DNA of 64,000 nt from a virus (IMGVR_UViG_3300029543_000174:50821-114820); one strand, 5' to 3'; shown: positions 6,806 through 52,692, numbered from the stretch's first letter. The notes: generated from the letters alone by a model not told the origin. A program made the numbers and translations.

Positions 6806-6866
6806 TTTTGTTAAAATCGAGATTTTTTTCAAATTTTTTTGAAATATTTGCGATTTCTATAATGTA
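6806..6866 (+). promoter_or_regulatory. copy 1 of recurrent promoter-like motif (core TTTGCGATTTCTATAATG at 6848-6865)
   Basis: Shares the architecture found in 15 copies in this window. Located upstream of the dnaN-like gene. Confidence 0.5.
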
Positions 6867-6895
6867 CGGACCAAAAGGTCAGAAAGGAAAATTTT

Positions 6896-8023
6896 ATGAA
6901 TTTTAAATGTGATACTCAAATAATCAAAAGTGCTTGTGCCTCGGCTTCAAAGGCATCAAGCGTAAAAGCAACAATCCCAACATTAAAAGGATTACTTCTC
7001 GAAGCAAAGGAAAATTGTCTTACAATTACAGGCTATGATTTACAGCTTGGAATTAAAAAGTCAATTACTGCTGAGGTAAGCGACACCGGAGCAATTATTG
7101 TTGATGCAACAATGCTCAATAATATTCTCTCAAAAGTAAAAGGAAATACGGTTGAATTTGCTCTTGAAAACAATAACCTTGTAAGAATTAAATCAGGTAG
7201 GGCAAGATTTAAAATCAATGGCATTAACGCAGAAGACTTCCCGGAGATTCCGGCAGTGACAGGTGAAAACTTTTCTCTTACTGAAAAAGATTTTCTCAAA
7301 ATGATTTCAGTTCCGATTTTCGCTGCTGCTGATGAATGTCAGCAAAAGCCTATTTCTACAGGATTAAACTTTGAACTTTCGGATGGTTGTCTTACTACAT
7401 ACGCTCTTGACGGCTATCGTTTAGCTTTATACAGATTATTTAATGATTTTGTAGGTTCATACAGCTTCACAGTGCCTAAAAGAACGATTAAATGTATCAG
7501 TAAAGAAATAAGCGATTCAGAAGAAAAAATCGTCAATATAACGCTCTCTGCCAATCATATCCATATTGTAACAGATGAATATGATTTCTTTAGCAGATTG
7601 CTTGAAGGTGAAAGATTTAATTATAAGAATGCCATTCCTAACAAGTTCGTTTTTGAAACAATAATTGATGTTGACAGCACAGCCGAATCAATAAATTGTT
7701 GTGCACCTATAATCGAAAGTTCACAAAAGAATCCGATTCGTTGTGAATTTAACGGTAATCAATTAAATATTAAAACGAAATCCGTACTTGGTGAGGTCGA
7801 AGATACAATTGATATTGAGACAACAATGCAAGAAACACCTGTAACTATCGGTTTTAATGCTAAATATCTTTTAGAGGCATTAAATAATATCCCACCTGAA
7901 CACAGTACGGTTACATACAAGCTTGCAGGACCGGTTTCTCCGAGCGTTATTGTTCCTAATAAGGATGATGATTCAAACGAAAAATTCTTATTTATGGTGC
8001 TTCCTATGAGGTTAAAGAACTAA
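6896..8023 (+). CDS. dnaN: DNA polymerase III beta subunit-like sliding clamp
   Basis: 375 aa. The N-terminus MNFKCDTQ...IPTLKGLLLEAKENCLTITGYDLQLGIKKSITAEV follows the DnaN consensus (ref. tLPiL-L-a--g-L-ltgTDLE). Confidence 0.8.
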   Translation: MNFKCDTQIIKSACASASKASSVKATIPTLKGLLLEAKENCLTITGYDLQLGIKKSITAEVSDTGAIIVDATMLNNILSKVKGNTVEFALENNNLVRIKSGRARFKINGINAEDFPEIPAVTGENFSLTEKDFLKMISVPIFAAADECQQKPISTGLNFELSDGCLTTYALDGYRLALYRLFNDFVGSYSFTVPKRTIKCISKEISDSEEKIVNITLSANHIHIVTDEYDFFSRLLEGERFNYKNAIPNKFVFETIIDVDSTAESINCCAPIIESSQKNPIRCEFNGNQLNIKTKSVLGEVEDTIDIETTMQETPVTIGFNAKYLLEALNNIPPEHSTVTYKLAGPVSPSVIVPNKDDDSNEKFLFMVLPMRLKN

Positions 8024-8065
8024 TATTACCACTTGTATTTCATCACGATTCTAAAAAAATAAAAA

Positions 8066-8084
8066 TTGCGTGATATATATAGTG
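8066..8084 (+). promoter_or_regulatory. short-form promoter-like core TTGCGTGATATATATAGTG
   Basis: Same core as the other 14 copies. Lies directly upstream of the GC-rich island. Confidence 0.4.
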
Positions 8085-8139
8085 TAAGCAGAAAAATTTA
8101 ATACAGTTCCTTTTATGGCTTTTTGGGGAAATAAAATAA

Positions 8140-8550
8140 TCAAAAAGAGTATCACCAAGCTTAACTATAAAATTGGTGGGGCGGGGCGAAAGCGGCTTGA
8201 CCAAGTAACCCTGTCCTGAGCGGTGAAGTTCTTCCATACCGTTGCCTAAGTCAACTAAGTTGATATGGTTAAAAGGAAGAGGATGGAATTCAATAGAGTT
8301 CTGGGAACTGCCGGTGAGTGGAAACACTCAACAATGAGGGATCTGTACCATTGAGGCAGGTTAGATATTGGTCTAACAACTCGTCAAGTGTCCGATCAAG
8401 CGGTTTAGCGACGGCGACGGCATAAGCTGTTTTTGTCATTTTTACTGTAATGAAGAGGGGAAGGAGTTTCTTCAAATGCCCTTGGGGAAACTCTGTCCTC
8501 TCTTCACAGTACGCTCTGGTTCTGGCATCGGTTCTTAGAAGATACATAGG
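8140..8550. ncRNA. candidate structured non-coding RNA (GC-rich island; class and strand unknown)
   Basis: About 400 nt with GC content far above the ~30% GC flanks (GGTGGGGCGGGGCGAAAGCGGC...GGCGACGGCGACGGC...). Only two low-complexity minus-strand ORFs cover it. No RBS, and it sits in a 626-nt intergenic gap. Confidence 0.3.
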
Positions 8551-8649
8551 AAATAAGTAGGAAGATAATAAAGATGGATATTATATATAGTAATTTATAA
8601 TATATAGGACTGAAAAATTTTTAAAAATAAAAATAAAAAGGAGAAAAAT

Positions 8650-9168
8650 ATGTTTAATTTACAAGATGTGGCAAACGAATATCGACGTCTGGACCAAATT
8701 CTTAATGTTGACACAAGCAATATTGATTTAGTGCACTTCGCCGGTGTTTTTCGATGTGGATATTGTTCCGTTTGTGGAGAAAAATCAATTAAAATTGGAA
8801 TTAATGATTTGGTCTTTGAGTGTCCTGAAAATGAGTTTTACAATGTAATAAGACACGAATATGCTCATGCTGTTGATGCAATAAAATACAAAAACAGAGG
8901 ACATAGCCAAACTTGGAAACAAATTTGTAAAATAGTTGGCTGTATTCCATCGACACATATTCCTAAAAATTCAGAATTACAAAAGAAAGTTGAGCAATAC
9001 AATATGCAAACTGCAAAATACAAAATTACTTGTTCACATTGTGGTGAAGTTTATTACTATCAAAGAAAATCTTCTATTGTAAATGCTTATTATGCAGGAG
9101 CAAAACTTAAATGTCCTGTATGCCACAAGAAATTTTCAATTAATACGAACAAGGAAAATATTTCATAA
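8650..9168 (+). CDS. SprT-like zinc metallopeptidase-domain protein with C-terminal zinc ribbons
   Basis: HEYAHAVD (HExxH) plus three CxxC pairs. RBS AAGGAG. Confidence 0.5.
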   Translation: MFNLQDVANEYRRLDQILNVDTSNIDLVHFAGVFRCGYCSVCGEKSIKIGINDLVFECPENEFYNVIRHEYAHAVDAIKYKNRGHSQTWKQICKIVGCIPSTHIPKNSELQKKVEQYNMQTAKYKITCSHCGEVYYYQRKSSIVNAYYAGAKLKCPVCHKKFSINTNKENIS

Positions 9169-9186
9169 AAAATATTAAGCAGTAGG

Positions 9187-9212
9187 ATTATTCCTGCTGC
9201 TTATATGTACAC
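9187..9212 (+). terminator. hairpin AAGCAGTAGGATTATTCCTGCTGCTT
   Basis: Inverted repeat after the gene end, followed by an AT-rich tract. Confidence 0.4.
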
Positions 9213-9253
9213 AAAAAACAATATAATCAATAATTTATAAAGGAGAATTATAC

Positions 9254-9883
9254 ATGGCGTATTATGCTGTAAAAGTTGGCAGAGAACCCGGTGTTTATAA
9301 CACTTGGGATGAATGCAATTCACAGGTGAATGGTTTTCCAAAAGCAATATATAAGAAATTTTCTACTTTAGAGGAAGCTGAAATATTTGCTGACGTGAAA
9401 AACAAATCTTCTGCCAAAAAAGTTAAAACTGAAAAGAAAAAATCAAAAAACAGTAAAATTCCTGATAAAGAAAGAGCAATTGCTTATACAGACGGCTCTG
9501 CAATCGGTAATCATGTGATTGAATGCGGCTCAGGCGCAATTATTATTTGGAAAGAAAATGTTGTTAAAATCTGTTCTAAGCTTTCAGGACCTATTGTTAC
9601 ATCAAAAAATGTAACAGGTGAGATTTATGCTGCAATGTCGGCTATGAGTTTTGCAGTACAAAATAACATCAAAGAGGTTGTTATTTATTACGACTATGAG
9701 GGAATAGCAAAATGGTGTACAGGTGAGTGGGAAGCTAACAAGCAAGTAACTCGTCGGTACAGGGAATTCTTTGATTTCTGTTCGGGCAAAACAAACATTA
9801 AATTCAAGAAAGTCAAAGCTCATTCAGGAGATGTTTATAATGAGATGGCTGATGAATTGGCTAAAAAAAGTATTAATTTGTAA
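9254..9883 (+). CDS. rnhA: ribonuclease H1 with N-terminal hybrid-binding (caulimovirus viroplasmin-like) domain
   Basis: N-terminus MAYYAVKVGREPGVYNTWDECNSQVNGFPKAIYKKFSTLEEAEIF (HBD). The C-terminus has RNase H motifs AYTDGS, E, D and HSGDVYNEMADELAK. Confidence 0.75.
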   Translation: MAYYAVKVGREPGVYNTWDECNSQVNGFPKAIYKKFSTLEEAEIFADVKNKSSAKKVKTEKKKSKNSKIPDKERAIAYTDGSAIGNHVIECGSGAIIIWKENVVKICSKLSGPIVTSKNVTGEIYAAMSAMSFAVQNNIKEVVIYYDYEGIAKWCTGEWEANKQVTRRYREFFDFCSGKTNIKFKKVKAHSGDVYNEMADELAKKSINL

Positions 9884-9900
9884 GAAAGGAATTTTAATTT

Positions 9901-10437: not shown

Positions 10438-10442
10438 TACTA

Positions 10443-10469
10443 AAAAGTCACCTTTTGGTGGCTTTTTTT
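10443..10469 (+). terminator. rho-independent terminator AAAAGTCACCTTTTGGTGGCTTTTTTT
   Basis: Hairpin followed by a T-run. Near-duplicate of the 6763 terminator. Confidence 0.7.
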
Positions 10470-10497
10470 ATTTTTTAAAATACAATTTTGTTAATAT

Positions 10498-10556
10498 TTT
10501 GCGAACTTTATGGAAAATTACAAATTTTTCATAAATATTTGCGATTTATATATTGG
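10498..10556 (+). promoter_or_regulatory. copy of recurrent promoter-like motif (TTGCGA-N17-AAATTTTTCATAAATATTTGCGATTTATATATTG)
   Basis: Full long-form motif. Confidence 0.5.
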
Positions 10557-10570
10557 GTGGTGAAAAAAAT

Positions 10571-10747
10571 ATGTTTTTTGAGATTATTAACAACGAAAAA
10601 AGAACAGTTTTTACAACTGATGATAAGAAGTGTATTCCGATGATTGGAATTTTAAAACTTCAAAATAAAAATGGTTATAAATTCAAATTGGATGGTAAAA
10701 ATATTTCATTAAATAACCTAATTAATTATGTAAATGAGGAGGAATAA
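10571..10747 (+). CDS. small hypothetical protein
   Basis: ATG 14 nt after the motif. The listed TTG start at 10553 is less likely. Confidence 0.3.
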   Translation: MFFEIINNEKRTVFTTDDKKCIPMIGILKLQNKNGYKFKLDGKNISLNNLINYVNEEE

Positions 10748-10749
10748 CA

Positions 10750-11070
10750 TTGGATTACAAGAGTAAATGCAATACCAAAGAAGAACTTGCAGTATTAGAG
10801 TTAATCAGAGAAGACCAATATATTACTTCTACTGAAATAAGTCTGCACACAAGGTTGGGTACGCAGCAAATAAGAGAACAGATTAATCATATGAGAACTA
10901 ACGGTATTCCTATCGTTGCTTGTAATAAAGGTTATAGACTAACTGATAGTGCTCAAGATGTATCCGACCAAATAGAATCACTGCTTGGCAGAATTAACAG
11001 CATATATAATGCAATAGACGGCTTGAAAAAAGCCAAAATCATTTTAAAGGAGAATGAAACAAATGGGTAA
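10750..11070 (+). CDS. putative winged-helix DNA-binding protein
   Basis: TTG start with a GAGGAGG RBS. The pattern ELAVLELIRE...ISLHTRLGTQQIREQINHMRTNGIPIV is wHTH-like. Confidence 0.35.
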   Translation: MDYKSKCNTKEELAVLELIREDQYITSTEISLHTRLGTQQIREQINHMRTNGIPIVACNKGYRLTDSAQDVSDQIESLLGRINSIYNAIDGLKKAKIILKENETNG

Positions 11071-12458: not shown

Positions 12459-12472
12459 GGAGAATAAATATT

Positions 12473-12751: not shown

Positions 12752-12758
12752 AAAATGT

Positions 12759-13279: not shown

Positions 13280-13291
13280 GGAGGCAATAAT

Positions 13292-18818: not shown

Positions 18819-18849
18819 CCACACACCGTAAAGGAATGTGGTTTTACGG
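18819..18849 (+). repeat. conserved box CCACACACCGTAAAGGAATGTGGTTTTACGG (copy 1 of 3)
   Basis: Contains a CCGTAAA/TTTACGG inverted repeat. Exact copy at 21758 and near-exact copy at 37493. Confidence 0.6.
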
Positions 18850-18917
18850 AAAGTTGTTTATATGATTTTCACAATTATATGGTGAAAGATTAATTTCTGT
18901 AACTCTTTTTTAATAAA

Positions 18918-18976
18918 TTGCGAATTTTAAGCAATATTTCAAATTTTTTCAAAATATTTGCGATTAATTATATAGA
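18918..18976 (+). promoter_or_regulatory. copy of recurrent promoter-like motif
   Basis: TTGCGA-N17-AAATTTTTTCAAAATATTTGCGATTAATTATATAG. Confidence 0.5.
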
Positions 18977-19003
18977 AACAAAAAACAAAAGGAGATTTTT
19001 ATT

Positions 19004-21619: not shown

Positions 21620-21649
21620 AAAAGAGCCACCGGAAGGGTGGCTTTTTTT
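21620..21649 (+). terminator. rho-independent terminator GAGCCACCGGAAGGGTGGCTTTTTTT
   Basis: Hairpin followed by a T-run. Confidence 0.7.
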
Positions 21650-21678: not shown

Positions 21679-21735
21679 TTGCGAAAATTGAGAAAATTTT
21701 CAAATTTTTTTGAAATATTTGCGATTTATATAGTG
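21679..21735 (+). promoter_or_regulatory. copy of recurrent promoter-like motif
   Basis: TTGCGA-N17-AAATTTTTTTTGAAATATTTGCGATTTATATAGTG. Confidence 0.5.
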
Positions 21736-21757
21736 AAGACTGAAAAAGAGTGAACTA

Positions 21758-21788
21758 CCACACACCGTAAAGGAATGTGGTTTTACGG
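21758..21788 (+). repeat. conserved box CCACACACCGTAAAGGAATGTGGTTTTACGG (copy 2)
   Basis: Identical to 18819..18849. Confidence 0.6.
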
Positions 21789-21834
21789 ATAGTTATTTAT
21801 AAATAACTTTTTTGTAATTTTAGGAGGATTTTTT

Positions 21835-30530: not shown

Positions 30531-30559
30531 GAAAAAAGATAGAATGGAAAATAGATAAA

Positions 30560-30592
30560 AGGCAGCAGGTAAATATATCTGCTGCTTTTTTA
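30560..30592 (+). terminator. rho-independent terminator AGGCAGCAG-GTAAATATAT-CTGCTGCTTTTTTAT
   Basis: Hairpin followed by a T-run. Confidence 0.65.
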
Positions 30593-30604: not shown

Positions 30605-30672
30605 TTGTGAAGATTTAAGAATATTTCAAATTTTTCCGAAATATTTGCGATTTATATAGTGAAGGCTCAAAA
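30605..30672 (+). promoter_or_regulatory. copy of recurrent promoter-like motif
   Basis: TTGTGA-N17-AAATTTTTCCGAAATATTTGCGATTTATATAGTG. Confidence 0.5.
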
Positions 30673-37487: not shown

Positions 37488-37492
37488 ATTAC

Positions 37493-37521
37493 CACACACC
37501 TAAAGGAATGTGGTTTTACGA
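37493..37521 (+). repeat. conserved box CCACACACC-TAAAGGAATGTGGTTTTACG (copy 3, 1-nt deletion)
   Basis: Near-identical to copies at 18819 and 21758. Confidence 0.55.
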
Positions 37522-37591
37522 ATAGATATTTATATTTTTTTAGAGTAACCTTTATGGTTGCTCTTTTTTTATGCCTTTTTTTGTTAATAAT

Positions 37592-37648
37592 TTGCGAATT
37601 ATGAGAAGAATTTCAAATTTTTCTGAAATATTTGCGATTTATATATTG
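37592..37648 (+). promoter_or_regulatory. copy of recurrent promoter-like motif
   Basis: TTGCGA-N17-AAATTTTTCTGAAATATTTGCGATTTATATATTG, immediately followed by AAGGAG and an ATG. Confidence 0.5.
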
Positions 37649-37663
37649 AAAGGAGCGTTTATA

Positions 37664-39560: not shown

Positions 39561-39589
39561 TTTTTATTTACAAAAATATTTTAAATTTT

Positions 39590-39608
39590 CTTGCGCGATA
39601 AATATATA
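39590..39608 (+). promoter_or_regulatory. short-form promoter-like core TTGCGCGATAAATATATAG
   Basis: Same core as the other copies. Confidence 0.45.
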
Positions 39609-39661
39609 GAAAGACTTTTTTTAAAAACAAGTCAAATATTAAAGAAAAGGAGGAAAATTAT

Positions 39662-42907: not shown

Positions 42908-42957
42908 CCAGTTCGTCCTCCGGATTGCTTCGGCACCGGGGGCTTTTTATTAACATT

Positions 42958-43015
42958 TTGCGAATTTTGGCAAAAACAGCAAATTTTTTTGAAATATTCG
43001 CGATTAATAATATAG
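42958..43015 (+). promoter_or_regulatory. copy of recurrent promoter-like motif
   Basis: TTGCGA-N17-AAATTTTTTTGAAATATTCGCGATTAATAATATAG. Confidence 0.5.
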
Positions 43016-43060
43016 AACGACTGAAAAAAGTCTGATTTTTAATATGAAGGGTGGAATTAA

Positions 43061-46152: not shown

Positions 46153-46221
46153 TATAGCTTTGAGGGCAGTAATTTATATTACTGCCTTTTTTATTGTTTT
46201 TTTCTTCATTCTGCGAACTTT

Positions 46222-46277
46222 TTGCGAATATTGACGATTTTTTCAAATTTTTCTGAAATATTTGCGATTATATAATG
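46222..46277 (+). promoter_or_regulatory. copy of recurrent promoter-like motif
   Basis: TTGCGA-N17-AAATTTTTCTGAAATATTTGCGATTATATAATG. Confidence 0.5.
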
Positions 46278-46293
46278 TAAGGAGAAAAAAGCA

Positions 46294-46479
46294 ATGGGAT
46301 CAAGCTTTAATAAGTTCAAAATTGTTGATAAAGAAACAACAATAGTTTACACACAAGATGTAAATGGAAACATCAATGGTAAATTCTATATTGATACTGA
46401 AGATTTGTCAAAAGTCCTTATGGGGTTATTGCCAAGGTTGTGCTCCTCCAAACTGCCTGAAATTGTTAATGTTTTGTAA
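46294..46479 (+). CDS. small hypothetical protein
   Basis: AAGGAGAAAAAA RBS. Confidence 0.35.
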   Translation: MGSSFNKFKIVDKETTIVYTQDVNGNINGKFYIDTEDLSKVLMGLLPRLCSSKLPEIVNVL

Positions 46480-46530
46480 ACACTGAGAAAAATCACAAAT
46501 TTTTTTGAAATATTCGCGATTTATATAATG
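46474..46530 (+). promoter_or_regulatory. copy of recurrent promoter-like motif (upstream of TnpB-like gene)
   Basis: TTGTAA-N17-AAATTTTTTTGAAATATTCGCGATTTATATAATG. Confidence 0.5.
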
Positions 46531-46556
46531 TAAGGCGGTAAAAAGGAGGAATTACT

Positions 46557-48353
46557 GTGCCGGAAAAAGAAAAAAAGAATCAATATATTTTATCAATGGG
46601 CTTAGAAATTAATGCTGATGATAAAATTTATCTTGATAAGTATTTTGAATTTGTAAGAAAAATGCAAAATTATTTTATTTCTTATCAGCTAAAAAAATAT
46701 AACAAAATGGTAAGAGAAACAAATTATCAAGAATTAAAAATTCAAATTGATAATATTGATAAAGCTATTTCTAATTTCAACAGACAAATTATAAACCGTC
46801 AAAAAGTTATTGATGAAGGTGAAATATCTAAATGTGAAATCACTTCATACAAGAATGAAATTGCAGAATTGAAAAAAGATATTTCTTCTTTGAAAAAAGA
46901 AAAATCAAAATATCAAAAGCAAATTTATGAACTTTTGAAAGAATACAGGTTTAGTGATTTAAGTTTTAAATCCGATGTAGCTATATTTGACAAAATTGAT
47001 TATTTCACAAAACCTTGTTACAAAACAAAGAATGGTAAGCTTGCAAGAGATAAAAATGGTAACAAAATTCCTATTCTCGATGAAAACGGAAATGTAAAAA
47101 GAAAATGTTTTGTCTCTTCATTAGTGAGAAAATATTCTATTGCTGCACCGATTTGGTCAGCATTTGATAAAAAGTTCAAGGAAAACGGTGCAGTCCATTT
47201 TAAAAGCTTTTTAAATAAAAAATCAGTCAGCTCTATTGCATTCCCAGTTGGTAATTCTTTCAAAGGTAACAATGCTTTTGTTATTCCTTCTGTAGGCAAA
47301 ATAATTAAATATAAAATACCAAGAACCCAATACGAAAAGGAAGTATTTAACAAAGAAAATGTTAATGTTATCCGAATTAAAAGGATTTGGAAGAATACAA
47401 AATACAGCTATTCGGTTCAGTTTACTATAACAGGTGAACCTGTGTTAAGGAAAGACAAAGATAATTGTGTCAAACATCCACTTGGCACTGGTGTAGCAGG
47501 TGTAGGTATAAGTTTAAATGAATGTTGGATTTGCACTGAGAACACATTAAAAAGAGTTTCTTTAGTTCCACCTGATGCTTATGAGTTTGATAATGAAATA
47601 AAACAAATTGAAAGAGCAATGGATAGAAGTAAGCGTGCTACTAATCCAAATAATTTTGATGAAAAGGGTAGGGCAAAGAGCTTTTACGAAACGCCTGACC
47701 CTGATAACCCAGACAAAATCATCAAGTCAAAGCTCCGTTGGAGATTTTCAAAGCATTACAGAAAACTAAGTCAAAGAAAAGCTTATTTGGAAGGTATTAA
47801 TGCCAGAAAGCGTAAGCTTTATGACGAAAACCTTGTGAATGAATTATTGCTGTATTTCAATGAAATCAATATTCAAAAGAATGATTTCAAGAGAACTCAA
47901 ATGAGTAAACAAAAAGTCGGTGACAGCGCCGATGAAAAGAAAAAGGCTGGTTTACATATTAAAGAAGCATCACCTTCACAGTTCGTTGAAATTCTTAAAA
48001 GAAAAGTCATCAGCCACGGTGGTAAAGTAAATATCATTACTAAAAAGGAATGTCAAGCAACAGAATTCAATCATATAGACGGTAAGTTCTATGATATGCC
48101 TGTTTCTAACAGGTGGTTTGGTATGAGTGATGGTAATGTTCTTCAAAGAGATGCTCATACGGCTTTTAATCTATTGACACTTAATGATATAGAAAAAAGC
48201 AACAAACTTTATGATGACTTTTTAAAACAACATTCTGCCGAACTTGAAAAGTTTAATGTTGTTGCACCTGAACAGGTAAATATGGTTACTTGCAGTCAGG
48301 CAAAAGAAAAAAGAAAGTCAGCAAGAAAAACAAAAAAGAAAAATATTGCATGA
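46557..48353 (+). CDS. TnpB/Cas12-like RuvC-fold protein (598 aa), RuvC-I Asp apparently replaced by Ser
   Basis: GTG start with an AAGGAGG RBS. Region GTGVAGVGISLNE aligns with the TnpB RuvC-I block (ref. vGIDLG) with S in the D position. KLRWRFSKHYRKLSQRKAYL...LLLYFNEINIQKNDF aligns with the RuvC-II block (ref. vvvEdLnvkgm). SQFVEILKRKVISHGGKVNIITKKECQATEF aligns with the TnpB block FxxLxYKAxxxGxxVxxV with a degenerate zinc finger. QRDAHTAFNLL aligns with RuvC-III (ref. DRDxNAAxNIL). Confidence 0.55.
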   Translation: MPEKEKKNQYILSMGLEINADDKIYLDKYFEFVRKMQNYFISYQLKKYNKMVRETNYQELKIQIDNIDKAISNFNRQIINRQKVIDEGEISKCEITSYKNEIAELKKDISSLKKEKSKYQKQIYELLKEYRFSDLSFKSDVAIFDKIDYFTKPCYKTKNGKLARDKNGNKIPILDENGNVKRKCFVSSLVRKYSIAAPIWSAFDKKFKENGAVHFKSFLNKKSVSSIAFPVGNSFKGNNAFVIPSVGKIIKYKIPRTQYEKEVFNKENVNVIRIKRIWKNTKYSYSVQFTITGEPVLRKDKDNCVKHPLGTGVAGVGISLNECWICTENTLKRVSLVPPDAYEFDNEIKQIERAMDRSKRATNPNNFDEKGRAKSFYETPDPDNPDKIIKSKLRWRFSKHYRKLSQRKAYLEGINARKRKLYDENLVNELLLYFNEINIQKNDFKRTQMSKQKVGDSADEKKKAGLHIKEASPSQFVEILKRKVISHGGKVNIITKKECQATEFNHIDGKFYDMPVSNRWFGMSDGNVLQRDAHTAFNLLTLNDIEKSNKLYDDFLKQHSAELEKFNVVAPEQVNMVTCSQAKEKRKSARKTKKKNIA

Positions 48354-48365
48354 CAGCAATGTTGA

Positions 48366-48516
48366 TATAGGTAGACTTAGCTACCTAAAACTACCGGTAA
48401 ACGCATTTTTGTGTTTGGTAGTAATGAAATAATTAAGGTTAAGCAGTTAGTTGGTTTGCGTTTGTCAGAACTTAATAGAGCTGTTTGACAAGATTATACA
48501 GTGTAATTAATTTGAG
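48366..48516 (+). other. conserved array leader, copy 1 (about 150 bp; contains TTGACA-N17-TAATTT)
   Basis: About 90% identical to 49690..49825 and 50502..50652. Confidence 0.5.
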
Positions 48517-48618
48517 GTTTTGGTACTGTAGTAGATTACACTACTCTAAAAGAAATATATTGGGAGTGTCTGAAAAATCCATGTTTTGGTACTGTAGTAA
48601 ATTACACTACTCTAATTA
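48517..48618 (+). CRISPR. CRISPR-like mini-array 1 (2 repeats of 36 nt, 1 spacer of 30 nt)
   Basis: Repeat GTTTTGGTACTGTAGTA(A/G)ATTACACTACTCTAAAAG. Spacer AAATATATTGGGAGTGTCTGAAAAATCCAT. The second repeat has a degenerate 3' end. A terminator hairpin follows at 48618-48638. Confidence 0.5.
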
Positions 48619-48638
48619 CACCATTTGGTGTGTTTTAT
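48618..48638 (+). terminator. hairpin ACACCATTTGGTGTG followed by TTTTAT
   Basis: Inverted repeat with a T-run after array 1. Confidence 0.5.
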
Positions 48639-48668
48639 ATAAAAAATAATTTAGGAGGAAAAAATATA

Positions 48669-48769
48669 TGTCATTCAATATGGTTATGGTTATTATTTGT
48701 GCTGTAATTCTTGTTGCTTGCATTATTGCTCTTATTGTAAGAGGCATTAAGAGTAAGCGCAATAAGTAA
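48669..48769 (+). CDS. small hydrophobic peptide (33 aa)
   Basis: GGAGGAAAAAA RBS. Sequence MSFNMVMVIICAVILVACIIALIVRGIKSKRNK. Similar in shape to the peptide at 52312. Confidence 0.3.
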
Positions 48770-48824
48770 TTAAGTACAAATACAGCATCCCCGGATACGC
48801 TGATTAAACATTATCCGGGAATGT

Positions 48825-48911
48825 GACAATGTAGTTTAACGGTAAAACACAAAAGTTGTTTTTTTGATCCTCCTTCGACTTTTGGATGTAAGTTCAAATC
48901 TTACCATTGCC
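48825..48911 (+). tRNA. atypical tRNA-like gene (possible anticodon UGU; 21-nt variable arm; one acceptor-stem mismatch)
   Basis: Canonical T arm (GTAAG-TTCAAAT-CTTAC) and D arm (GTTT-AACGGTA-AAAC) by eye. The anticodon loop is ambiguous because of a T7 run. Confidence 0.3.
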
Positions 48912-48921
48912 AATAAGATAT

Positions 48922-49007
48922 GCTGATGTGATGGAATGGCAGACAGAAGAGACTTAAAATCTCTTGGTGGAAACATCGTGTGAGTTCGACTCTCACCATC
49001 AGCACCA
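48922..49007 (+). tRNA. tRNA-Leu (UAA), type II with long variable arm, CCA encoded
   Basis: Acceptor GCTGATG/CATCAGC. Anticodon stem AGAGA/TCTCT with loop CTTAAAA. T arm GTGAG-TTCGACT-CTCAC. Confidence 0.7.
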
Positions 49008-49355
49008 CTGCAGGGCCCAAGTGAAAGGTCTAAGAAGTTTCACAACGGTATAAGATATTTCTTGGCTGGTTTTTGCCGTGTGCTGGAATGCACTGAATCA
49101 ATAACCTTACAGACAGTATCAAAAAAGTTAGGACTTTTTGTATTGGAAGGGTTGCTGACCTTTCCGTAGTTTTTCTAATGATTTAAAGGAAGTTAAGCAA
49201 AAGTGTACATATTACTTTACTGAATTTAATCACCGTATTAACACGCTGATAGACAGTATTTCTCCCACAATTCGGGAAGTAAAGAGATCTATTGGTTGAA
49301 AGTAAATGGATACGGCAGAACAGTGCACATCTGCCGTATCACGATTATTAAATAC

Positions 49356-49430
49356 GCAGATATGATGTAATCGGTAGCATACAACTCTTCCACAGTTGGT
49401 GTGCGAGTTCAAACCTCGTTATCTGCTCCA
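49356..49430 (+). tRNA. tRNA-Gly (UCC), CCA encoded
   Basis: Acceptor GCAGATA/TATCTGC. Anticodon stem CAACT/AGTTG with loop CTTCCAC. T arm GCGAG-TTCAAAC-CTCGT. Confidence 0.75.
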
Positions 49431-49436
49431 AAATAT

Positions 49437-49512
49437 TCTCCATTAGTTCAGAAGGTAGAACGGTAGACTGTTAATCTATATGTCATTGGTTCAAATCCAA
49501 TATGGAGAGCCA
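49437..49512 (+). tRNA. tRNA-Asn (GUU), CCA encoded
   Basis: Acceptor TCTCCAT/ATGGAGA. D arm GTTC-AGAAGGTA-GAAC. Anticodon loop CTGTTAA. T arm ATTGG-TTCAAAT-CCAAT. Confidence 0.8.
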
Positions 49513-49515
49513 AAC

Positions 49516-49591
49516 GGACCGTTAGCTTAGTAGGTAAAGCAACCGGCTCATAACCGGTAAACCATGGGTTCAAATCCTATACGGTCCACCA
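49516..49591 (+). tRNA. tRNA-Met (CAU) (elongator-type; Ile2/lysidine alternative not excluded)
   Basis: Acceptor GGACCGT/ACGGTCC with 1-72 paired. D arm GCTT-AGTAGGTA-AAGC. Anticodon stem ACCGG/CCGGT with loop CTCATAA. Confidence 0.8.
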
Positions 49592-49594
49592 TAT

Positions 49595-49670
49595 GTGTCA
49601 TTAGCTCAGTAGGTAGAGCAACAGACTTTTAATTTGCAGGTCAAGGGTTCAATTCCCTTATGACACACCA
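49595..49670 (+). tRNA. tRNA-Lys (UUU), CCA encoded
   Basis: Acceptor GTGTCAT/ATGACAC. D arm GCTC-AGTAGGTA-GAGC. Anticodon loop CTTTTAA, with one A-C mismatch in the anticodon stem. T arm AAGGG-TTCAATT-CCCTT. Confidence 0.7.
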
Positions 49671-49689
49671 CTTAATAGGGCTGAATTAG

Positions 49690-49825
49690 CAGCCTGATGC
49701 TACTGGTAAACACATTTTTGTGTTTGGTAGTAATGAAATAATCAAGGTTAAGCAGTTAGTTGGTTTGCATTTGTCAGAACTCAATAGAGCTGCTTAACAA
49801 GATTATATAGTGTAATTAATTTGAG
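49690..49825 (+). other. conserved array leader, copy 2
   Basis: About 90% identical to leader copies 1 and 3. Confidence 0.5.
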
Positions 49826-49993
49826 GTTTTTGTACTGTAGTAAATTACACTACTCTAAAAGCGCCGCAGAATTGCTTCCACGGTGGTCTTTGTTTTGGTA
49901 CTGTAGTAAATTACACTACTCTAAAAGGACAGCTACAGTTTTAGGCACGGTTTTCTTGTTTTTGTACTGTAGTAAATTACACTACTCTTAACG
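49826..49993 (+). CRISPR. CRISPR-like mini-array 2 (3 repeats of 36 nt, 2 spacers of 30 nt)
   Basis: Repeats GTTTTTGTACTGTAGTAAATTACACTACTCTAAAAG, then the GTTTTGG variant, then a degenerate terminal repeat ending CTTAACG. Spacers CGCCGCAGAATTGCTTCCACGGTGGTCTTT and GACAGCTACAGTTTTAGGCACGGTTTTCTT. Confidence 0.55.
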
Positions 49994-50056
49994 TTGTTTG
50001 TTTTGAGAAATGCAAGACAAAGAGTAGTAAATTTCATTTAAAAGAGGAAAAAATAA

Positions 50057-50497
50057 ATGCATTTAGATACAGCAGTAATATTTTTTATTGGTGTTCCTGT
50101 ATATTTGCTAATGGCATTATTATCAAGAAAATTTGCGTATGTTGAAGCATCAATTGGATTGCTAATATGTTCAATTGTTAGCCTATTTACAGAAAACACA
50201 GGAATAATTTGTTTGGTGATATATTTTGGACCATTCATTGTTTCAGCTATTATGAAACCAATAGAAAATAGGATAAATAAAAAGAAACAAGAAAAAGAAT
50301 TGCATAAATTTGCGGATATGCAAAAAGGAAAGGTGGGTGTTATCCATGAATTAGAAGATGGCAACTTATATTTATTCCTCTCAGGTAGATATTGGCAAAT
50401 ATCCGAACAGTCGAGAATTAAATATAATTGTGAGGAACAAGATGCCGTTAAGGTATTAGATATTAATACAGATAGACTTATCGTTAAGCCTATTTAG
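50057..50497 (+). CDS. NfeD-like membrane protein (short form)
   Basis: N-terminal TM segments. The C-terminus GKVGVIHELEDGNLYLFLSGRYWQISEQ...AVKVLDINTDRLIVKP fits the NfeD OB-fold pattern (ref. G.G.v..G..W.A.s...i..G..V.V....L.V.P). Confidence 0.5.
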   Translation: MHLDTAVIFFIGVPVYLLMALLSRKFAYVEASIGLLICSIVSLFTENTGIICLVIYFGPFIVSAIMKPIENRINKKKQEKELHKFADMQKGKVGVIHELEDGNLYLFLSGRYWQISEQSRIKYNCEEQDAVKVLDINTDRLIVKPI

Positions 50498-50501
50498 TAT
50501 A

Positions 50502-50652
50502 TATGGGTAGACTTAGCTACCTGAAACTACCGGTAAACGCATTTTTGCGCTTGGTAGTAATGAAATAATCGAGATTAAGCAGTTAGTTGGTTTGCATTCG
50601 TCAGAACTTAATAGAGCTGTTTGATAAGATTATGTAGTCGTAATAATTTGAG
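50502..50652 (+). other. conserved array leader, copy 3
   Basis: About 90% identical to leader copies 1 and 2. Confidence 0.5.
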
Positions 50653-50818
50653 GTTTTAGAACCATATATAACTACACTACTCTAAAAGTACCGAAGAAGA
50701 ACGAAGCGGTGCATAAAAGTTTTAGAACCATATATAACTACACTACTCTAAAAGGTCTGAGATAGTTGCAACAATAAAAAACTTTGGAACTGTATTATAT
50801 TACACTATTTTTTAAAAA
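50653..50818 (+). CRISPR. CRISPR-like mini-array 3 (2 clean repeats plus 1 degenerate; spacers of about 30 nt)
   Basis: Repeat variant GTTTTAGAACCATATATAACTACACTACTCTAAAAG appears twice. Spacer TACCGAAGAAGAACGAAGCGGTGCATAAAA. The third unit is degenerate (TGGAACTGTATTATATTACACTATTTTTT). Confidence 0.5.
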
Positions 50819-50833
50819 AAGGAGATAAAAATT

Positions 50834-51238
50834 ATGCTAAAAATTGCAAAACCAAACTTCTTCGTAAATGAAGAAAAGAGAACAATCGTTGGTAAGTTGA
50901 TTATGCCGGATGATAAAGAATTATTTGATGTTGCTCAATTAGTTGACGAGGTTGACGAAGATTTCTGTTATGAAAATCTTAAAAATTCCTATGACTTTAC
51001 TATTTTTGAAGCAAAGGCAAAGTGCTGCCCCGAAGACAAGTGGGATGTAGAAAAAGGAAAGGCCATTGTTAATGAACGATTGGGTAAAATGATTATTCAA
51101 AGAGTTAAACGTCAGGCTAAAGAAGAAAGAACAAAAATTATTAATCGTATCAGTGAACTCGATGAAATCATAAAGCATTGTGATAAAAGCATCGACAATT
51201 CAAACAAACATATTGATAAAATTATCAAGGGGGAATAA
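50834..51238 (+). CDS. hypothetical protein
   Basis: AAAGGAGA RBS. Confidence 0.45.
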   Translation: MLKIAKPNFFVNEEKRTIVGKLIMPDDKELFDVAQLVDEVDEDFCYENLKNSYDFTIFEAKAKCCPEDKWDVEKGKAIVNERLGKMIIQRVKRQAKEERTKIINRISELDEIIKHCDKSIDNSNKHIDKIIKGE

Positions 51239-51240
51239 TT

Positions 51241-52191
51241 ATGAGTTTAGCTAAGAAAGTATTATCGGTTGGTATTGCTTCTATTATGGCAATGTCAGCT
51301 ATTGGAGTTGGCACTACTGCACTTGCCGAACCAATTAATTCTGTTCAGTCGGCTACTTCAATTTCACTAAATGAGAGTAAAACTGTAACCTTGAAATATG
51401 GTGATATTGGTAATTATGATGACATCTCGGAAGATACTGTTTACTATAAGTTTACTGCTCCGACCACTAATTATTATGAATTTACCTTAACAGGTTACAA
51501 GACAAGAATTGATAATAATGACCCAAGTGCTTATATTGATATAACAGATGAATATGGCGTCAATGCATCGTCAAGTGGGGGCTTATTTAATCCGTATTTT
51601 AATGATGTAAAATCAATTGCCTATTTGGAACAAGGAAAGTCATATATAATCAATGTCTTTTACTCACCAATTGGTACTCAAGAGTACAATTCAAAGGACT
51701 ATGCCGAAACAGCAATTACACTAACTGTTTCTCCACATACACATGACATTACAAGTGTCGTTAATGACGGATATACAGACTACACCTGCAAGCGTTGCAA
51801 TTATTCATATACCGAATTTAAACCGTTACCGACATCTCCTTCACAGCCTACACAGGCTCCTACAAGCACTGTTACTCCAATAACAGCAAGTAAGGTATCA
51901 AAGCCAAAAAAGACTAAAATTAAAAAGGTAAAGGCTGCTAAGAAGGCATTGGCAGTTACTTGGAATAAAGTATCCGGCGTAAAAGGTTATCAAGTACAGG
52001 CTGCAACAGACAAAAAGTTCAAAAAGAACAAGAAAACTGTTACAATCAAGAAGCAAAAAACTACTAAGACAACCGTAAAGAAACTTAAAGCTAAGAAAAA
52101 GTATTACGTAAGAGTAAGAACTTACAAGACCATAAATGGAAAAAAGGTTTACTCGGCTTGGTCAAGTGTAAAAAATGTAAAAACTAAATAG
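51241..52191 (+). CDS. secreted protein with shared Lys-rich Fn3-like C-terminal module
   Basis: Signal peptide. The C-terminal ~100 aa are nearly identical to the C-terminus of the 60296 protein. Confidence 0.5.
   Translation: MSLAKKVLSVGIASIMAMSAIGVGTTALAEPINSVQSATSISLNESKTVTLKYGDIGNYDDISEDTVYYKFTAPTTNYYEFTLTGYKTRIDNNDPSAYIDITDEYGVNASSSGGLFNPYFNDVKSIAYLEQGKSYIINVFYSPIGTQEYNSKDYAETAITLTVSPHTHDITSVVNDGYTDYTCKRCNYSYTEFKPLPTSPSQPTQAPTSTVTPITASKVSKPKKTKIKKVKAAKKALAVTWNKVSGVKGYQVQAATDKKFKKNKKTVTIKKQKTTKTTVKKLKAKKKYYVRVRTYKTINGKKVYSAWSSVKNVKTK
51848..52140 (+). repeat. about 290 bp nearly identical to 63724..64000 (shared C-terminal module of two surface-protein genes)
   Basis: Direct comparison of the nucleotide strings gives about 93% identity. 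Confidence 0.7.
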
Positions 52192-52269
52192 ACTTTTTTG
52201 TAAATCTAAAAAGCACCATAGAATTTTGATTTTCTATGGTGCTTTTTTATTTTTCTAAAAATAAAAAAC

Positions 52270-52288
52270 TTGCGCGATATATATATTG
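52270..52288 (+). promoter_or_regulatory. short-form promoter-like core TTGCGCGATATATATATTG
   Basis: First of four tandem copies in 52.2-52.7 kb. Followed by a strong RBS and a 34-aa peptide gene. Confidence 0.5.
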
Positions 52289-52311
52289 AACGAAGCAGTT
52301 AGGAGGAATGT

Positions 52312-52416
52312 TATGACACTTACAGGAAACATAATTTTGCTGATTGTATGTTCAATTACATTTATTGCAAGTTTGACGGCTCTCATTTTGAGAAGTGTCA
52401 AAAAACACAAAAAATG
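52312..52416 (+). CDS. small hydrophobic peptide (34 aa)
   Basis: TTAGGAGGAATG RBS. Sequence MTLTGNIILLIVCSITFIASLTALILRSVKKHKK. Confidence 0.3.
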
Positions 52417-52446
52417 AAAAAATTTAATATTCAAAAATTTTAAAAA

Positions 52447-52465
52447 GTTGCGCGATATATAAAGT
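52447..52465 (+). promoter_or_regulatory. short-form promoter-like core TTGCGCGATATATAAAGTG
   Basis: Tandem copy 2. Confidence 0.45.
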
Positions 52466-52536
52466 GAAAGGTGAATAACACTCATTTGATATTAGAAATT
52501 TGGAGCTTGATTATAACCTTTCTGAAAATAAAAAAA

Positions 52537-52555
52537 TTGCGCGATATAGAAAATG
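52537..52555 (+). promoter_or_regulatory. short-form promoter-like core TTGCGCGATATAGAAAATG
   Basis: Tandem copy 3. Confidence 0.45.
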
Positions 52556-52673
52556 GTGAGGTTAAACCGCACTGGCGTAAATATCGTATTGAAAATTATA
52601 AAAAATCAAATAGAACCTGCTTTGAGTGTATATTTTGAGGATTTGTATTTGATTTTATGAAAAAAAATTTTCT

Positions 52674-52692
52674 TGCGCGATATCTTAAGTGA
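52674..52692 (+). promoter_or_regulatory. short-form promoter-like core TTGCGCGATATCTTAAGTG
   Basis: Tandem copy 4. Confidence 0.45.

What the first reader, a model, noticed from the sequence alone, without database searches (positions are those of the whole stretch)
6806..52692. Fifteen copies of an element-specific promoter-like motif with core TTGCG(C/A)GAT(T/A)TATATAGTG
There are nine long-form copies, at 6806, 10498, 18918, 21679, 30605, 37592, 42958, 46222 and 46474. These have the stereotyped structure TTGCGA-N17-AAATTTTT(T/C)TGAAATATTTGCGATTTATATAGTG. There are six short-form copies (TTGCGCGATATATA-AGTG) at 8066, 39590, 52270, 52447, 52537 and 52674. All are on the + strand and intergenic. 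They usually follow a terminator and lie 5-45 nt ahead of an RBS. The spacing does not fit a standard sigma-A -35/-10 pair. A TATAAT or TATATA element is embedded, but only 2-3 bp separate it from the downstream TTGCGA. The two TTGCGA boxes are about 40 bp apart. This suggests recognition by an element-encoded factor or by an alternative sigma or RNA polymerase.
Basis: seen in the sequence. Interest (0 to 1): 0.72.

Follow-up and report, generated by a model that had tools for sequence, protein, structure and literature searches.

The report
Repeated promoter cassettes on a conjugative element
Fifteen copies of one intergenic, single-strand motif in this window look like the private promoter/operator cassettes of a roughly 195-kb conjugative plasmid-like element from gut bacteria; that kind of regulon is known, but this sequence and layout match no described promoter class.

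Summary
All 15 copies sit at the stated coordinates (±1 nt), all on the + strand and all intergenic.

Both forms align without gaps on one core, GCGAT-W-TATATA-nTG. The "long" form is TT+GCGAT and the "short" form is TTGC+GCGAT. The long form adds an inverted repeat (AATATTTCA-N8-TGAAATATT) and an upstream TTGCGAA box.

Eight of nine long copies directly follow an intrinsic terminator. Most copies precede an RBS.

The motif occurs only in one family of 190–200-kb contigs that are 93–99% identical to the window. These are filed as "viral" but look conjugative: VirD4, ArdC, PcfJ, sortase, surface adhesins.

Canonical TTGACA-N17-TATAAT promoters coexist in the same element, so the cassettes are a separate class. 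They have no −35 box and no TGn. In four copies the Shine-Dalgarno sequence starts 2–3 nt after the TATAnT hexamer, which places the start site at about nTG.

I found no sigma factor or RNA polymerase gene in about 147 kb of the element. The trans-acting factor therefore remains unidentified.

Best reading: promoter-plus-operator cassettes of an element-specific regulon, analogous to the EGeRS sequences of pLS20/p576 plasmids.

The parts
6806..6866 (+). Long-form cassette 1 (upstream box degenerate), ahead of the DnaN clamp gene 6896-8023
   Evidence: terminator 6762-6787 just upstream
10498..10557 (+). Long-form cassette 2; the RBS GGTGGTG begins 2 nt after the TATATT hexamer
   Evidence: terminator 10442-10467
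18918..18977 (+). Long-form cassette 3 (GCGATTAATTATATAGAA sub-variant)
21679..21737 (+). Long-form cassette 4, ahead of the PcfJ-like gene. In relatives it flanks a 3.9-kb insertion that carries two more copies
   Evidence: terminator 21625-21643
30605..30663 (+). Long-form cassette 5
   Evidence: terminator 30557-30590
37592..37650 (+). Long-form cassette 6; the RBS AAAGGAG begins 2 nt after the hexamer. A recombinant copy (upstream half like cassette 2) occurs in a relative
   Evidence: terminator 37542-37564
42958..43017 (+). Long-form cassette 7, ahead of the C5 DNA methylase gene
   Evidence: terminator 42927-42943
46212..46280 (+). Long-form cassette 8, with a doubled upstream box (CTGCGAAC-TTT-TTGCGAAT); the RBS AAGGAG begins 3 nt after the hexamer
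   Evidence: terminator 46162-46189
46474..46532 (+). Long-form cassette 9, ahead of the 598-aa TnpB/Cas12-like ORF
8046..8086 (+). Short-form copy (GTGAT variant), followed by about 540 nt of ORF-free structured sequence
39571..39611 (+). Short-form copy, ahead of the DUF4190 gene and the BspA-type LRR surface protein gene
52250..52290 (+). Short-form copy, ahead of a 43-aa membrane ORF
   Evidence: terminator 52208-52247
52428..52693 (+). Three tandem short-form copies (GCGAT at 52452, 52541, 52677), upstream of a leader with a terminator (53143-53176) and the T2SSE ATPase operon
60205..60269 (+). Comparison site: canonical TTGACA-N17-TATAAT promoter, preceded by AATTGTAAAACATATGCGAAC, which resembles the upstream box of the long form

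Best explanation
The copies are transcription-start cassettes, each a promoter with attached operator sites. Together they define a private regulon of a roughly 195-kb conjugative plasmid-like element of an AT-rich, Shine-Dalgarno-using gut bacterium (probably a Firmicute).

Shown:
- Each cassette stands between a terminator and a gene or operon, always in the direction of the genes.
- Both classes share the core GCGAT-N3-TATAnT-G. The long class adds a 9-bp inverted repeat centred about 30 bp upstream of the likely start site, and a TTGCGAA box about 40 bp further upstream.
- Canonical sigma-A promoters coexist in the element.

Inferred:
- Transcription starts at or next to the conserved nTG. 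In four copies the ribosome-binding site begins only 2–3 nt after the TATAnT hexamer.
- The core therefore cannot be read as an ordinary −35/−10 pair by host sigma-A alone. It needs an element-specific factor.
- I think that factor is most likely one or more element-encoded DNA-binding regulators acting with the host polymerase. The inverted repeat would be a dimer site lying where a −35 box would be. The TGCGAA/TTGCG boxes would be repeated operators.
- This would switch on (or release from repression) about 40 kb of DNA-metabolism, methylase and anti-defence-type genes together. It resembles the establishment regulons of pLS20-family plasmids.
- The short class, which lacks the inverted repeat and upstream box, would be a second, differently regulated set. 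It drives surface-protein genes, the ATPase operon and non-coding transcripts.
For: - Position and strand statistics.
- Terminators directly upstream.
- RBS and start codon downstream.
- The core is less variable between strains than its flanks, 0.7% against 2.8%.
- Gap-free common core across 18 independent copies.
- One copy in relatives keeps both half-sites of the inverted repeat while the spacer changes from AATTTTTC to AAAAAAAA.
- TGCGAA occurs 12 times on + in the window, 8 of them in these cassettes or next to the canonical promoter at 60241. A tandem pair, CTGCGAA-TTTT-TTGCGAA, abuts the −35 box of canonical promoters in the element's control region.
- TGCG also sits just upstream of the −10 box of several canonical promoters.
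- Winged-helix proteins are encoded in and near the regulon: 10750-11070 and L168:728-1042. An ImmA/IrrE-like peptidase was recognised by eye only.
- Conjugative context: VirD4, ArdC, PcfJ, YodL, LPD11, sortase. The distant relative MT835474.1 carries VirD4, VirB4, an NlpC/P60 hydrolase and topoisomerase III.
- Precedent: repeated regulatory sequences upstream of ardC and other establishment operons in pLS20 and p576 (PMC8708921).
- No sigma or RNA polymerase gene in about 147 kb.
Against: - No transcription data exist. The start site is inferred only from RBS proximity.
- No regulator has been tied to any box. The RHH-like small ORF (L174:8100-8372, − strand) and the winged-helix proteins are candidates by position only.
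- The inverted repeat and upstream box are no less variable between strains than neutral flanks.
- A promoter with no −35 and no TGn is a poor sigma-A substrate even with an activator.
- GATATA-type −10 elements are typical of alternative sigmas such as SigN.
- About a quarter of the element was not examined.
- Copy similarity partly reflects recent duplication and recombination rather than selection.
Confidence: 0.5

Rival explanations
1. The cassettes are bipartite promoters for an alternative sigma factor. It would be encoded in the unread part of the element, be too divergent for Pfam/PHROG models, or belong to the host. The −10 region would be (G)CGAT(A/T)TATA and the −35-like box TTC(A/T)AA, 16–17 bp upstream.
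For: - The CGATAT/GATATA core resembles the −10 elements of the plasmid sigma SigN of pBS32 (CCAGATATAA; PMC6751061). From my own knowledge it also resembles sigma-D/sigma-28 (GCCGATAT) and SPO1 gp34 (GATATT).
- A TTCWAA box lies 15–18 bp upstream of GCGAT in most copies.
- The start site predicted from such a −10 box falls at nTG/A, which leaves the adjacent RBS intact.
- The motif is lineage-specific. A relative whose ArdC is 97% identical uses a different repeated motif, TTTTTTTTACTATATA(A/T)AC.
Against: - No Sigma70_r2/r4 or other sigma hit in any ORF across about 147 kb.
- The −35 candidates are AT-rich, low in information and at variable distance (15–18 bp, absent in 39590).
- Neither the −35 box nor the spacing matches SigN or sigma-D.
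- The strongly conserved TATATA downstream of CGAT is unexplained by this model.
Confidence: 0.25
2. The cassettes are promoters for an element-encoded RNA polymerase, either T7-like single-subunit or YonO-like. A contiguous stretch of about 20 bp would be recognised, ending in TATA, with transcription starting at the following purine.
For: - The shape resembles T7/SP6 promoters: an AT-rich stretch, a specificity block (GCGAT), TATA, then G/A. Compare TATAGAAG in four copies with SP6 TATAGAAG (my own knowledge).
- The conserved sequence extends past the presumed start (nTG-A-G).
- A relative has a different specificity block before the same TATATA.
Against: - No polymerase-sized ORF with any RNA polymerase signature. 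The large ORFs are surface proteins, helicases, VirD4, a polytopic membrane protein (618 aa) and a TnpB/Cas12-like protein.
- Spacing between GCGAT and the TATA block differs by up to 3 nt among copies, which is hard to reconcile with rigid single-subunit recognition.
- To my knowledge, no such polymerase is known on Firmicute conjugative elements.
Confidence: 0.07
3. The repeats are not primarily promoters. They could be recombination or cassette-boundary sequences, partition or replication sites, or transcribed 5′-leader RNA or single-stranded-DNA elements such as Frpo-type ssDNA promoters.
For: - Copies bound indels. A 3.9-kb module present in relatives is flanked by copies, and one relative has a hybrid copy (upstream half like cassette 2, downstream half like cassette 6).
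- The surrounding region has establishment/leading-region-type gene content, where ssDNA promoters are known (PMC11541004).
Against: - Single-stranded DNA folding of either strand is weak and inconsistent (ΔG −4 to −9 kcal/mol, z from −2.2 to +0.2).
- The motif is about 75 nt and AT-rich. Frpo elements (my own knowledge) and EGeRS1 elements (420–750 bp, GC-rich) are structured and several hundred nucleotides long.
- Strict co-orientation with genes, a fixed place between terminator and RBS, and a TATA-rich core all fit initiation better.
- Recombination between repeated promoters is an expected side effect of their similarity.
Confidence: 0.1

Closest known systems
EGeRS2 establishment-gene regulatory sequences of Bacillus plasmid p576 (Reg576 regulon; PMC8708921)
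   Same: - Several copies of one regulatory sequence stand upstream of separate operons (in p576 these include ardC) on a Firmicute conjugative plasmid. The copies are similar but not identical, and they are what defines the regulon.
- Short repeated boxes sit next to the promoter. The dual heptamers of p576 compare with the single or doubled TGCGAA boxes here.
   Different: - EGeRS2 contains a strong consensus sigma-A promoter, and the operator is TTATCCCnnTTATCCC, bound by an RHH repressor.
- Here the core has no −35 box, the boxes have a different sequence, and there is an additional inverted repeat.
- There are 9–12 or more long copies plus a second (short) class.
- No repressor has been identified.
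- ArdC itself is driven by a different cassette, a canonical promoter followed by a three-hairpin leader.
EGeRS1 sequences of pLS20 (PMC8708921)
   Same: Repeated upstream of establishment operons; no recognisable sigma-A promoter; mechanism unknown.
   Different: - EGeRS1 is 420–750 bp, GC-rich and strongly structured.
- The cassettes here are about 75 nt (long) or 40 nt (short), AT-rich and unstructured.
- The 540-nt structured stretch at 8083-8620 resembles EGeRS1 more than the motif does.
SigN (ZpdN) regulon of Bacillus subtilis plasmid pBS32 (PMC6751061)
   Same: A plasmid-restricted set of promoters with a GATATA-type −10 element. The best plasmid matches of the window's T2SSE ATPase are pBS32-sized B. 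subtilis plasmids (26% identity).
   Different: - SigN promoters have TTTACGTTT at −35, 13–14 bp from GATATA. That box is absent here.
- No SigN-like gene was found.
Phage middle/late promoters that replace the −35 box by an activator site (T4 MotA box at −30; P1 Lpa inverted repeat at −22), and the IncP KorA/KorB global operator regulons (my own knowledge)
   Same: A −10-like element plus an element-specific site in place of −35, repeated at many promoters of one mobile element.
   Different: Different sequences, hosts and proteins. No homologue of MotA/AsiA, Lpa or KorA/KorB was detected.

Membership tests
Housekeeping sigma-70/sigma-A promoter | −35 hexamer close to TTGACA, 16–18 bp upstream of the −10 hexamer | tested here: not met
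   At 16–18 bp upstream of TATAnT the sequence is TTTTTT/TTTTCT/ATTTTT. No cassette is reported by the sigma-70 scan. True TTGACA-N17-TATAAT sites exist elsewhere in the element.
Housekeeping sigma-70/sigma-A promoter | −10 hexamer TATAAT-like, with the start site 5–9 nt downstream | tested here: inconclusive
   TATAnT is present in most copies. In 10541, 37634, 46264 and L177:2130 the RBS starts 2–3 nt after it, so a start 5–9 nt downstream would remove the RBS.
Housekeeping sigma-70/sigma-A promoter | Extended −10 box (TGn) when the −35 box is missing | tested here: not met
   Positions −15/−14 are TT or AT in all copies.
EGeRS2-type establishment regulon (p576) | Multiple similar regulatory sequences upstream of operons of a conjugative plasmid | tested here: met
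   9 long and 6 short copies in the window, with more outside it. VirD4 and ArdC are present in the element.
EGeRS2-type establishment regulon (p576) | Strong sigma-A promoter flanked by dual heptamer operators bound by an RHH repressor encoded in the regulon | tested here: inconclusive
   There is no sigma-A consensus in the core. Doubled TGCGAA boxes occur at 46212/46223 and in the control region. An RHH-like 73-aa ORF was seen by eye only and has no database support.
EGeRS2-type establishment regulon (p576) | Transient expression after transfer into a recipient | not testable with these tools
   Needs conjugation experiments.
EGeRS1 (pLS20) / Frpo-type single-stranded-DNA promoters | Several hundred nucleotides of GC-rich, strongly structured sequence | tested here: not met
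   The cassette is 40–75 nt and AT-rich. ssDNA folding gives ΔG −4 to −9 kcal/mol and z from −2.2 to +0.2 on either strand.
T7-like single-subunit RNA polymerase promoter | Rigid contiguous element of about 23 bp ending in TATA, start at +1 G, and a cognate polymerase gene in the element | tested here: inconclusive
   TATA followed by a purine is present, but the GCGAT-to-TATA spacing varies by up to 3 nt. No polymerase gene was found in about 147 kb. About 45–50 kb is unread.
SigN / sigma-28-type alternative-sigma promoter | −10 box GATATA/CCGATAT with the cognate −35 box (TTTACG or TAAA) at fixed spacing, and a cognate sigma gene | tested here: inconclusive
   The −10-like CGAT(A/T)T is present. 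TTTACG is present only at 39590 and at the wrong distance. A CAAA/TAAA box fits sigma-D spacing in the long form but is 2 bp off in the short form. No sigma gene was found.

The most novel reading that the evidence does not exclude
The cassettes are read through a previously undescribed specificity factor that current profiles cannot see. It could be a sigma-like subunit or a sigma-appropriating protein. This would give a ~195-kb gut conjugative element its own transcription programme, orthogonal to host sigma-A, with two promoter classes (long and short) that share one core.
Probability: 0.2. Interest if true: 0.7.

Novelty: new variant of a known kind. Interest (0 to 1): 0.45.

Why it matters
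Large conjugative elements of uncultured gut Firmicutes are almost unstudied at the level of transcription.

A 15-to-25-copy cassette that marks every transcription unit of a 40-kb block gives a ready-made map of a co-regulated regulon. That block holds a sliding clamp, helicase, methylases, UDG, nucleases and a nuclease-dead TnpB/Cas12-like protein with CRISPR arrays. The cassette is also a handle for finding its regulator.

If the core turns out to need a new sigma-like factor, it would be a new orthogonal promoter/factor pair. If it is a repressor-controlled establishment regulon, it extends the pLS20/p576 paradigm to much larger elements and to a different promoter architecture.

The work also shows that several database records filed as viral or "Bacteriophage sp." (the IMG/VR contigs and MT835474.1) are conjugative elements.

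Tried and rejected
1. The merged consensus from the title, as a search pattern, gave only 3 hits. I replaced it with class-specific anchors.
2. Megablast of the window against the phage and plasmid collections found nothing. tblastn gave only distant hits.
3. The genome scan with the long-form anchor gave 5 single, chance-like hits, with no host genome carrying the cassette.
5. Host flank in ERZ772818 NODE-260: rejected as a chimeric join to 55–60% GC enterobacterial DNA.
6. Hunt for a sigma factor or RNA polymerase. I ran Pfam on nearly every window ORF, and Pfam and PHROGs on concatenated unannotated ORFs of the window and 30 kb upstream. I also used the precomputed Pfam hits for neighbouring contigs. 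Nothing was found.
7. A scan for further copies of the control-region promoter TTGACACCTACTATTCAGTG found only the known control region.
8. Sigma-54, ECF, MerR-type long-spacer and Spo0A-box readings were considered from the sequence and rejected on spacing or mismatches. The TTGCGAA box is a constant 6/7 match to TGNCGAA and never the consensus.
9. The ssDNA hairpin promoter reading was rejected by folding.
10. A literature search for the motif strings found nothing relevant.
11. CRISPR spacers were tested against all held DNA for self-targeting of the cassettes. None matched.
12. More distant relatives (L169, L170, L181–L183, MT835474.1; 39–59% GC) lack the motif.

Full report
**Observation**

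Reading the sequence at the 15 stated coordinates shows the motif at every one, within ±1 nt.
- The long-form anchor AAATTTTTNNNAAATATTYGCG occurs nine times on the + strand and never on the − strand.
- TTGCGCGAT occurs five times on + and never on −. The sixth short copy is TTGCGTGAT at 8066.
- The merged consensus in the finding's title fits only the short form, with 3 matches at ≤2 mismatches.
- Anchored on GCGAT, all copies align without gaps as GCGAT-W-TATATA-nTG-A-G. The "long" form is TT+GCGAT and the "short" form is TTGC+GCGAT. An equally gap-free alignment is TTGCG-N3-TATATA.
- Four copies (18960, 43000, 39595, L190:4995) read GCGAT(T/A)AA(T)(T/A)ATATAGAA instead.

The long form is a 75-nt cassette: TTTGTWAAYAATTTGCGAA – about 12 nt – (A)ATATTTCA-N8-TGAAATATT – TGCGATTTATATAnTG.

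**More than chance**

- GCGAT occurs 37 times on + and 8 times on −.
- Fifteen of the + copies lie in the 12% of the window that is intergenic. None of the − copies do.
- The chance that 15 of 15 copies fall in intergenic DNA is about 1e-14.
- An intrinsic terminator lies 15–45 nt upstream of eight of the nine long copies and of the copy at 52270.
- Most copies are followed within 5–110 nt by a strong Shine-Dalgarno sequence and a start codon.
- Exceptions: 8066 is followed by about 540 nt of ORF-free, GC-richer sequence that folds well (z = −3.8; no Rfam match). Three short copies stand in tandem at 52447–52690.

**What the element is**

The window is 30% GC, has almost all genes on the + strand and carries six tRNA genes.

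Pfam identifies the following:
- a DnaN clamp, a RecG-like helicase, RNase H, UDG, thymidine kinase, and C5 and N6/N4 methylases;
- PcfJ, LPD11, YodL/DUF2958, DUF3848 and YopX;
- a sortase, BspA-type LRR and fn3 surface proteins, and a T2SSE ATPase.

Scanning public collections with the long-form anchor found the motif only in one family of contigs: 168,962, 192,275, 197,780 and 198,492 bp, plus fragments. All are 93–99.8% identical to the window. It was not found in the representative genomes of 185,579 species, apart from chance-like single hits.

Walking along these contigs added the following:
- Upstream: an ArdC gene just before the window, a VirD4-type coupling protein, SpaA-type adhesins, a 1.5-kb repeat-rich origin-like region, RtcB, HPF and a RecD-like helicase.
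- Downstream: giant surface proteins, an ImmA/IrrE-like peptidase (by eye), and DUF1848, DUF4942, Macro, HD and methylase genes.

A distant relative filed as "Bacteriophage sp." (MT835474.1; its ATPase is 44% identical) carries VirD4, VirB4, an NlpC/P60 hydrolase and topoisomerase III.

The element is therefore most likely a roughly 195-kb conjugative plasmid-like element rather than a phage. The apparent host flank in one contig is a chimeric join to enterobacterial DNA.

**Are the cassettes ordinary promoters?**

No, for four reasons.
- At 16–18 bp upstream of the TATAnT hexamer there is only a T-run.
- There is no TGn.
- The sigma-70 scan does not call any cassette.
- The same element contains perfect TTGACA-N17-TATAAT promoters:
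  - at 60241 in the window;
  - four copies in a divergent control region;
  - a repeated cassette of TTGACA-N10-TTTGCGTTACTATAAT plus a leader with three terminator-like hairpins, upstream of ArdC and of several downstream modules.

So the host polymerase recognises the usual consensus, and the cassettes are a distinct class.

A further argument comes from the sequence itself. In four copies (10541, 37634, 46264, L177:2130) the ribosome-binding site begins 2–3 nt after the TATAnT hexamer. A start site 5–9 nt after that hexamer would remove the site. The start is therefore probably at or near the conserved nTG. That puts TATATA in the melting region and GCGAT at about −15 to −20.

**Selection and turnover**

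- Across up to five alleles per copy, the core (−3 to +15 from GCGAT) has 2 variable sites in 285. The flanks have 67 in 2,415. This is modest evidence for constraint.
- The inverted repeat and the upstream box are no less variable than the flanks.
- In relatives, one extra copy keeps both half-sites while the 8-nt spacer changes from AATTTTTC to AAAAAAAA. This suggests the half-sites are what matters.
- Copies also recombine. A 3.9-kb module in relatives is bounded by copies, and one relative has a hybrid copy.
- Single-stranded DNA folding of either strand is weak and inconsistent. A hairpin-type ssDNA promoter is therefore unlikely.

**The TGCGAA/TTGCG box**

- TGCGAA occurs 12 times on + in the window. 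Eight are in the cassettes or next to the canonical promoter at 60241.
- A tandem pair, CTGCGAA-TTTT-TTGCGAA, abuts the −35 box of canonical promoters in the control region. A doubled box also precedes cassette 8.
- TGCG sits just upstream of the −10 box of several canonical promoters: GTGCGG|TATAAT, GTGCGC|TATAGT and TTTGCGTTAC|TATAAT.

This sharing between promoter classes suggests a DNA-binding regulator rather than a sigma determinant. It is only an inference.

**Search for the trans-acting factor**

- No sigma or RNA polymerase domain was found in any window ORF.
- None was found in concatenated unannotated ORFs of the window and 30 kb upstream (Pfam; PHROGs).
- None was found in the precomputed Pfam hits for neighbouring contigs.
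- About 147 kb of roughly 195 kb was covered, and about 45–50 kb could not be reached.
- Candidate regulators are the winged-helix proteins 10750-11070 and L168:728-1042, an HTH protein L174:7194-7580(−), and an RHH-like 73-aa ORF seen by eye with no database support.

**Comparison with known systems**

- The closest concept is the establishment-gene regulatory sequences of pLS20-family plasmids (PMC8708921). Several similar sequences stand upstream of ardC and other operons and define a regulon expressed on entry into a recipient.
  - EGeRS2 is a strong sigma-A promoter with dual heptamer operators for an RHH repressor.
  - EGeRS1 is a 420–750-bp structured element with no recognisable promoter.
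  - The cassettes here are neither.
- The −10-like GATATA recalls the plasmid sigma SigN (CCAGATATAA; PMC6751061), but its −35 box is absent.
- A relative whose ArdC is 97% identical uses a different repeated motif, TTTTTTTTACTATATA(A/T)AC. The upstream block is therefore lineage-specific.

**Verdict**

The factor that reads the cassettes is unknown. My estimates are:
- element-encoded DNA-binding regulators acting with host polymerase: about 0.5;
- an unseen alternative sigma: about 0.25;
- an element RNA polymerase: about 0.07;
- not promoters at all: about 0.1.

This is a new variant of a known kind of system and of moderate interest.

**Side finding**

The 598-aa ORF behind cassettes 8 and 9 belongs to the TnpB/Cas12 superfamily (profile against PDB, E = 1e-10 to 4e-6).
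- Two of its three RuvC catalytic residues are substituted: D→G and E→Q.
- It lies directly upstream of three mini-CRISPR arrays with conserved leaders.

Noticed in passing
window 46557-50820: The 598-aa ORF (46557-48353) belongs to the TnpB/Cas12 superfamily (family profile hits TnpB and TranC structures). Two of its three RuvC catalytic residues are replaced, D→G and E→Q. It is followed by three mini-CRISPR arrays (36-nt repeats, 30-nt spacers; repeats at 48517/48583, 49826/49892/49958 and 50653/50719/50783), each behind a conserved leader of about 150 nt. This could be a nuclease-dead RNA-guided DNA binder. The spacers match nothing in the held DNA.
   Followed up: partly
window 8083-8620: About 540 nt of ORF-free, GC-richer sequence lies directly downstream of the short-form copy at 8066 and directly upstream of the RBS of the SprT-like gene. 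It folds well (−149.9 kcal/mol, z = −3.8) and has no Rfam match. It may be a large non-coding RNA or an EGeRS1-like structured leader.
   Followed up: partly
window ~18826-18860, ~21757-21800, ~37490-37530: A repeated element of about 45 nt, CCACACACC(G)TAAAGGAATGTGGTTTTACG(G)… It can form two interlocking helices (CCACA/TGTGG and CCGTAAA/TTTACGG), so it is pseudoknot-like. One copy lies in a 5′ leader and two lie upstream of long-form cassettes. No Rfam match.
   Followed up: no
window 49008-49355; L167:2215-2500: About 340 nt of ORF-free sequence lies between tRNA-Leu and tRNA-Gly and is conserved in a relative that otherwise differs in this region. No Rfam match. It is a candidate non-coding RNA.
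   Followed up: no
L165:5420-5783 and 9153-9457; L200:~1781, ~10613, ~18393; L194:12413: A second repeated cassette in the same element. It consists of the canonical promoter TTGACA-N10-TTTGCGTTACTATAAT followed by a leader of about 250 nt with three terminator-like hairpins. It stands upstream of ArdC and of several downstream gene modules, which suggests an antitermination-controlled or EGeRS-like leader.
   Followed up: partly
L174:6300-8800 and L177:8480-10000: A control region holds four copies of the promoter TTGACACCTACTATTCAGTG..TATAAT in divergent orientation, tandem TGCGAA boxes, small HTH and RHH-like ORFs. Next to it is a 1.5-kb non-coding stretch of direct and inverted repeats (GTTGACT ×5, TTCACTAAA ×3) just after the VirD4 gene. 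That stretch is a likely origin (oriT or oriV).
   Followed up: partly
window 52428-53212: Three short-form copies stand in tandem with no convincing ORFs between them. They are followed by a leader ending in a strong terminator (53143-53176), immediately before the T2SSE ATPase gene. The arrangement suggests attenuation or small transcripts.
   Followed up: no
L041:7150-12668: Contig ERZ772818 NODE-260 jumps from 30% GC element DNA to 55–60% GC DNA encoding Usp, ADH, Rnk, AraC and PTS proteins, at a terminator hairpin. This is a chimeric assembly, not an integration site.
   Followed up: yes
L167 (IMGVR_UViG_3300045988_183523) ~790, ~2030, ~5770: A relative shares the ArdC operon at 89–97% protein identity but lacks the GCGAT cassettes. 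It has its own repeated motif, TTTTTTTTACTATATA(A/T)AC, in front of genes. One similar site lies at L168:1319 in front of the RecD-like helicase gene.
   Followed up: partly
L197 (ENA ERZ28616849 scaffold_2, 695,903 bp, positions 201,826-222,989): A close relative of the region downstream of the window lies inside a 696-kb scaffold, while other copies are on 190–203-kb contigs. The element may also exist integrated or as part of a larger replicon, or the scaffold may be mis-joined.
   Followed up: no
MT835474.1 (L171/L172) and the IMG/VR contigs: Records filed as viral or 'Bacteriophage sp.' carry VirD4, VirB4, an NlpC/P60 hydrolase and topoisomerase III, or VirD4 and ArdC. They look like conjugative elements.
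   Followed up: partly
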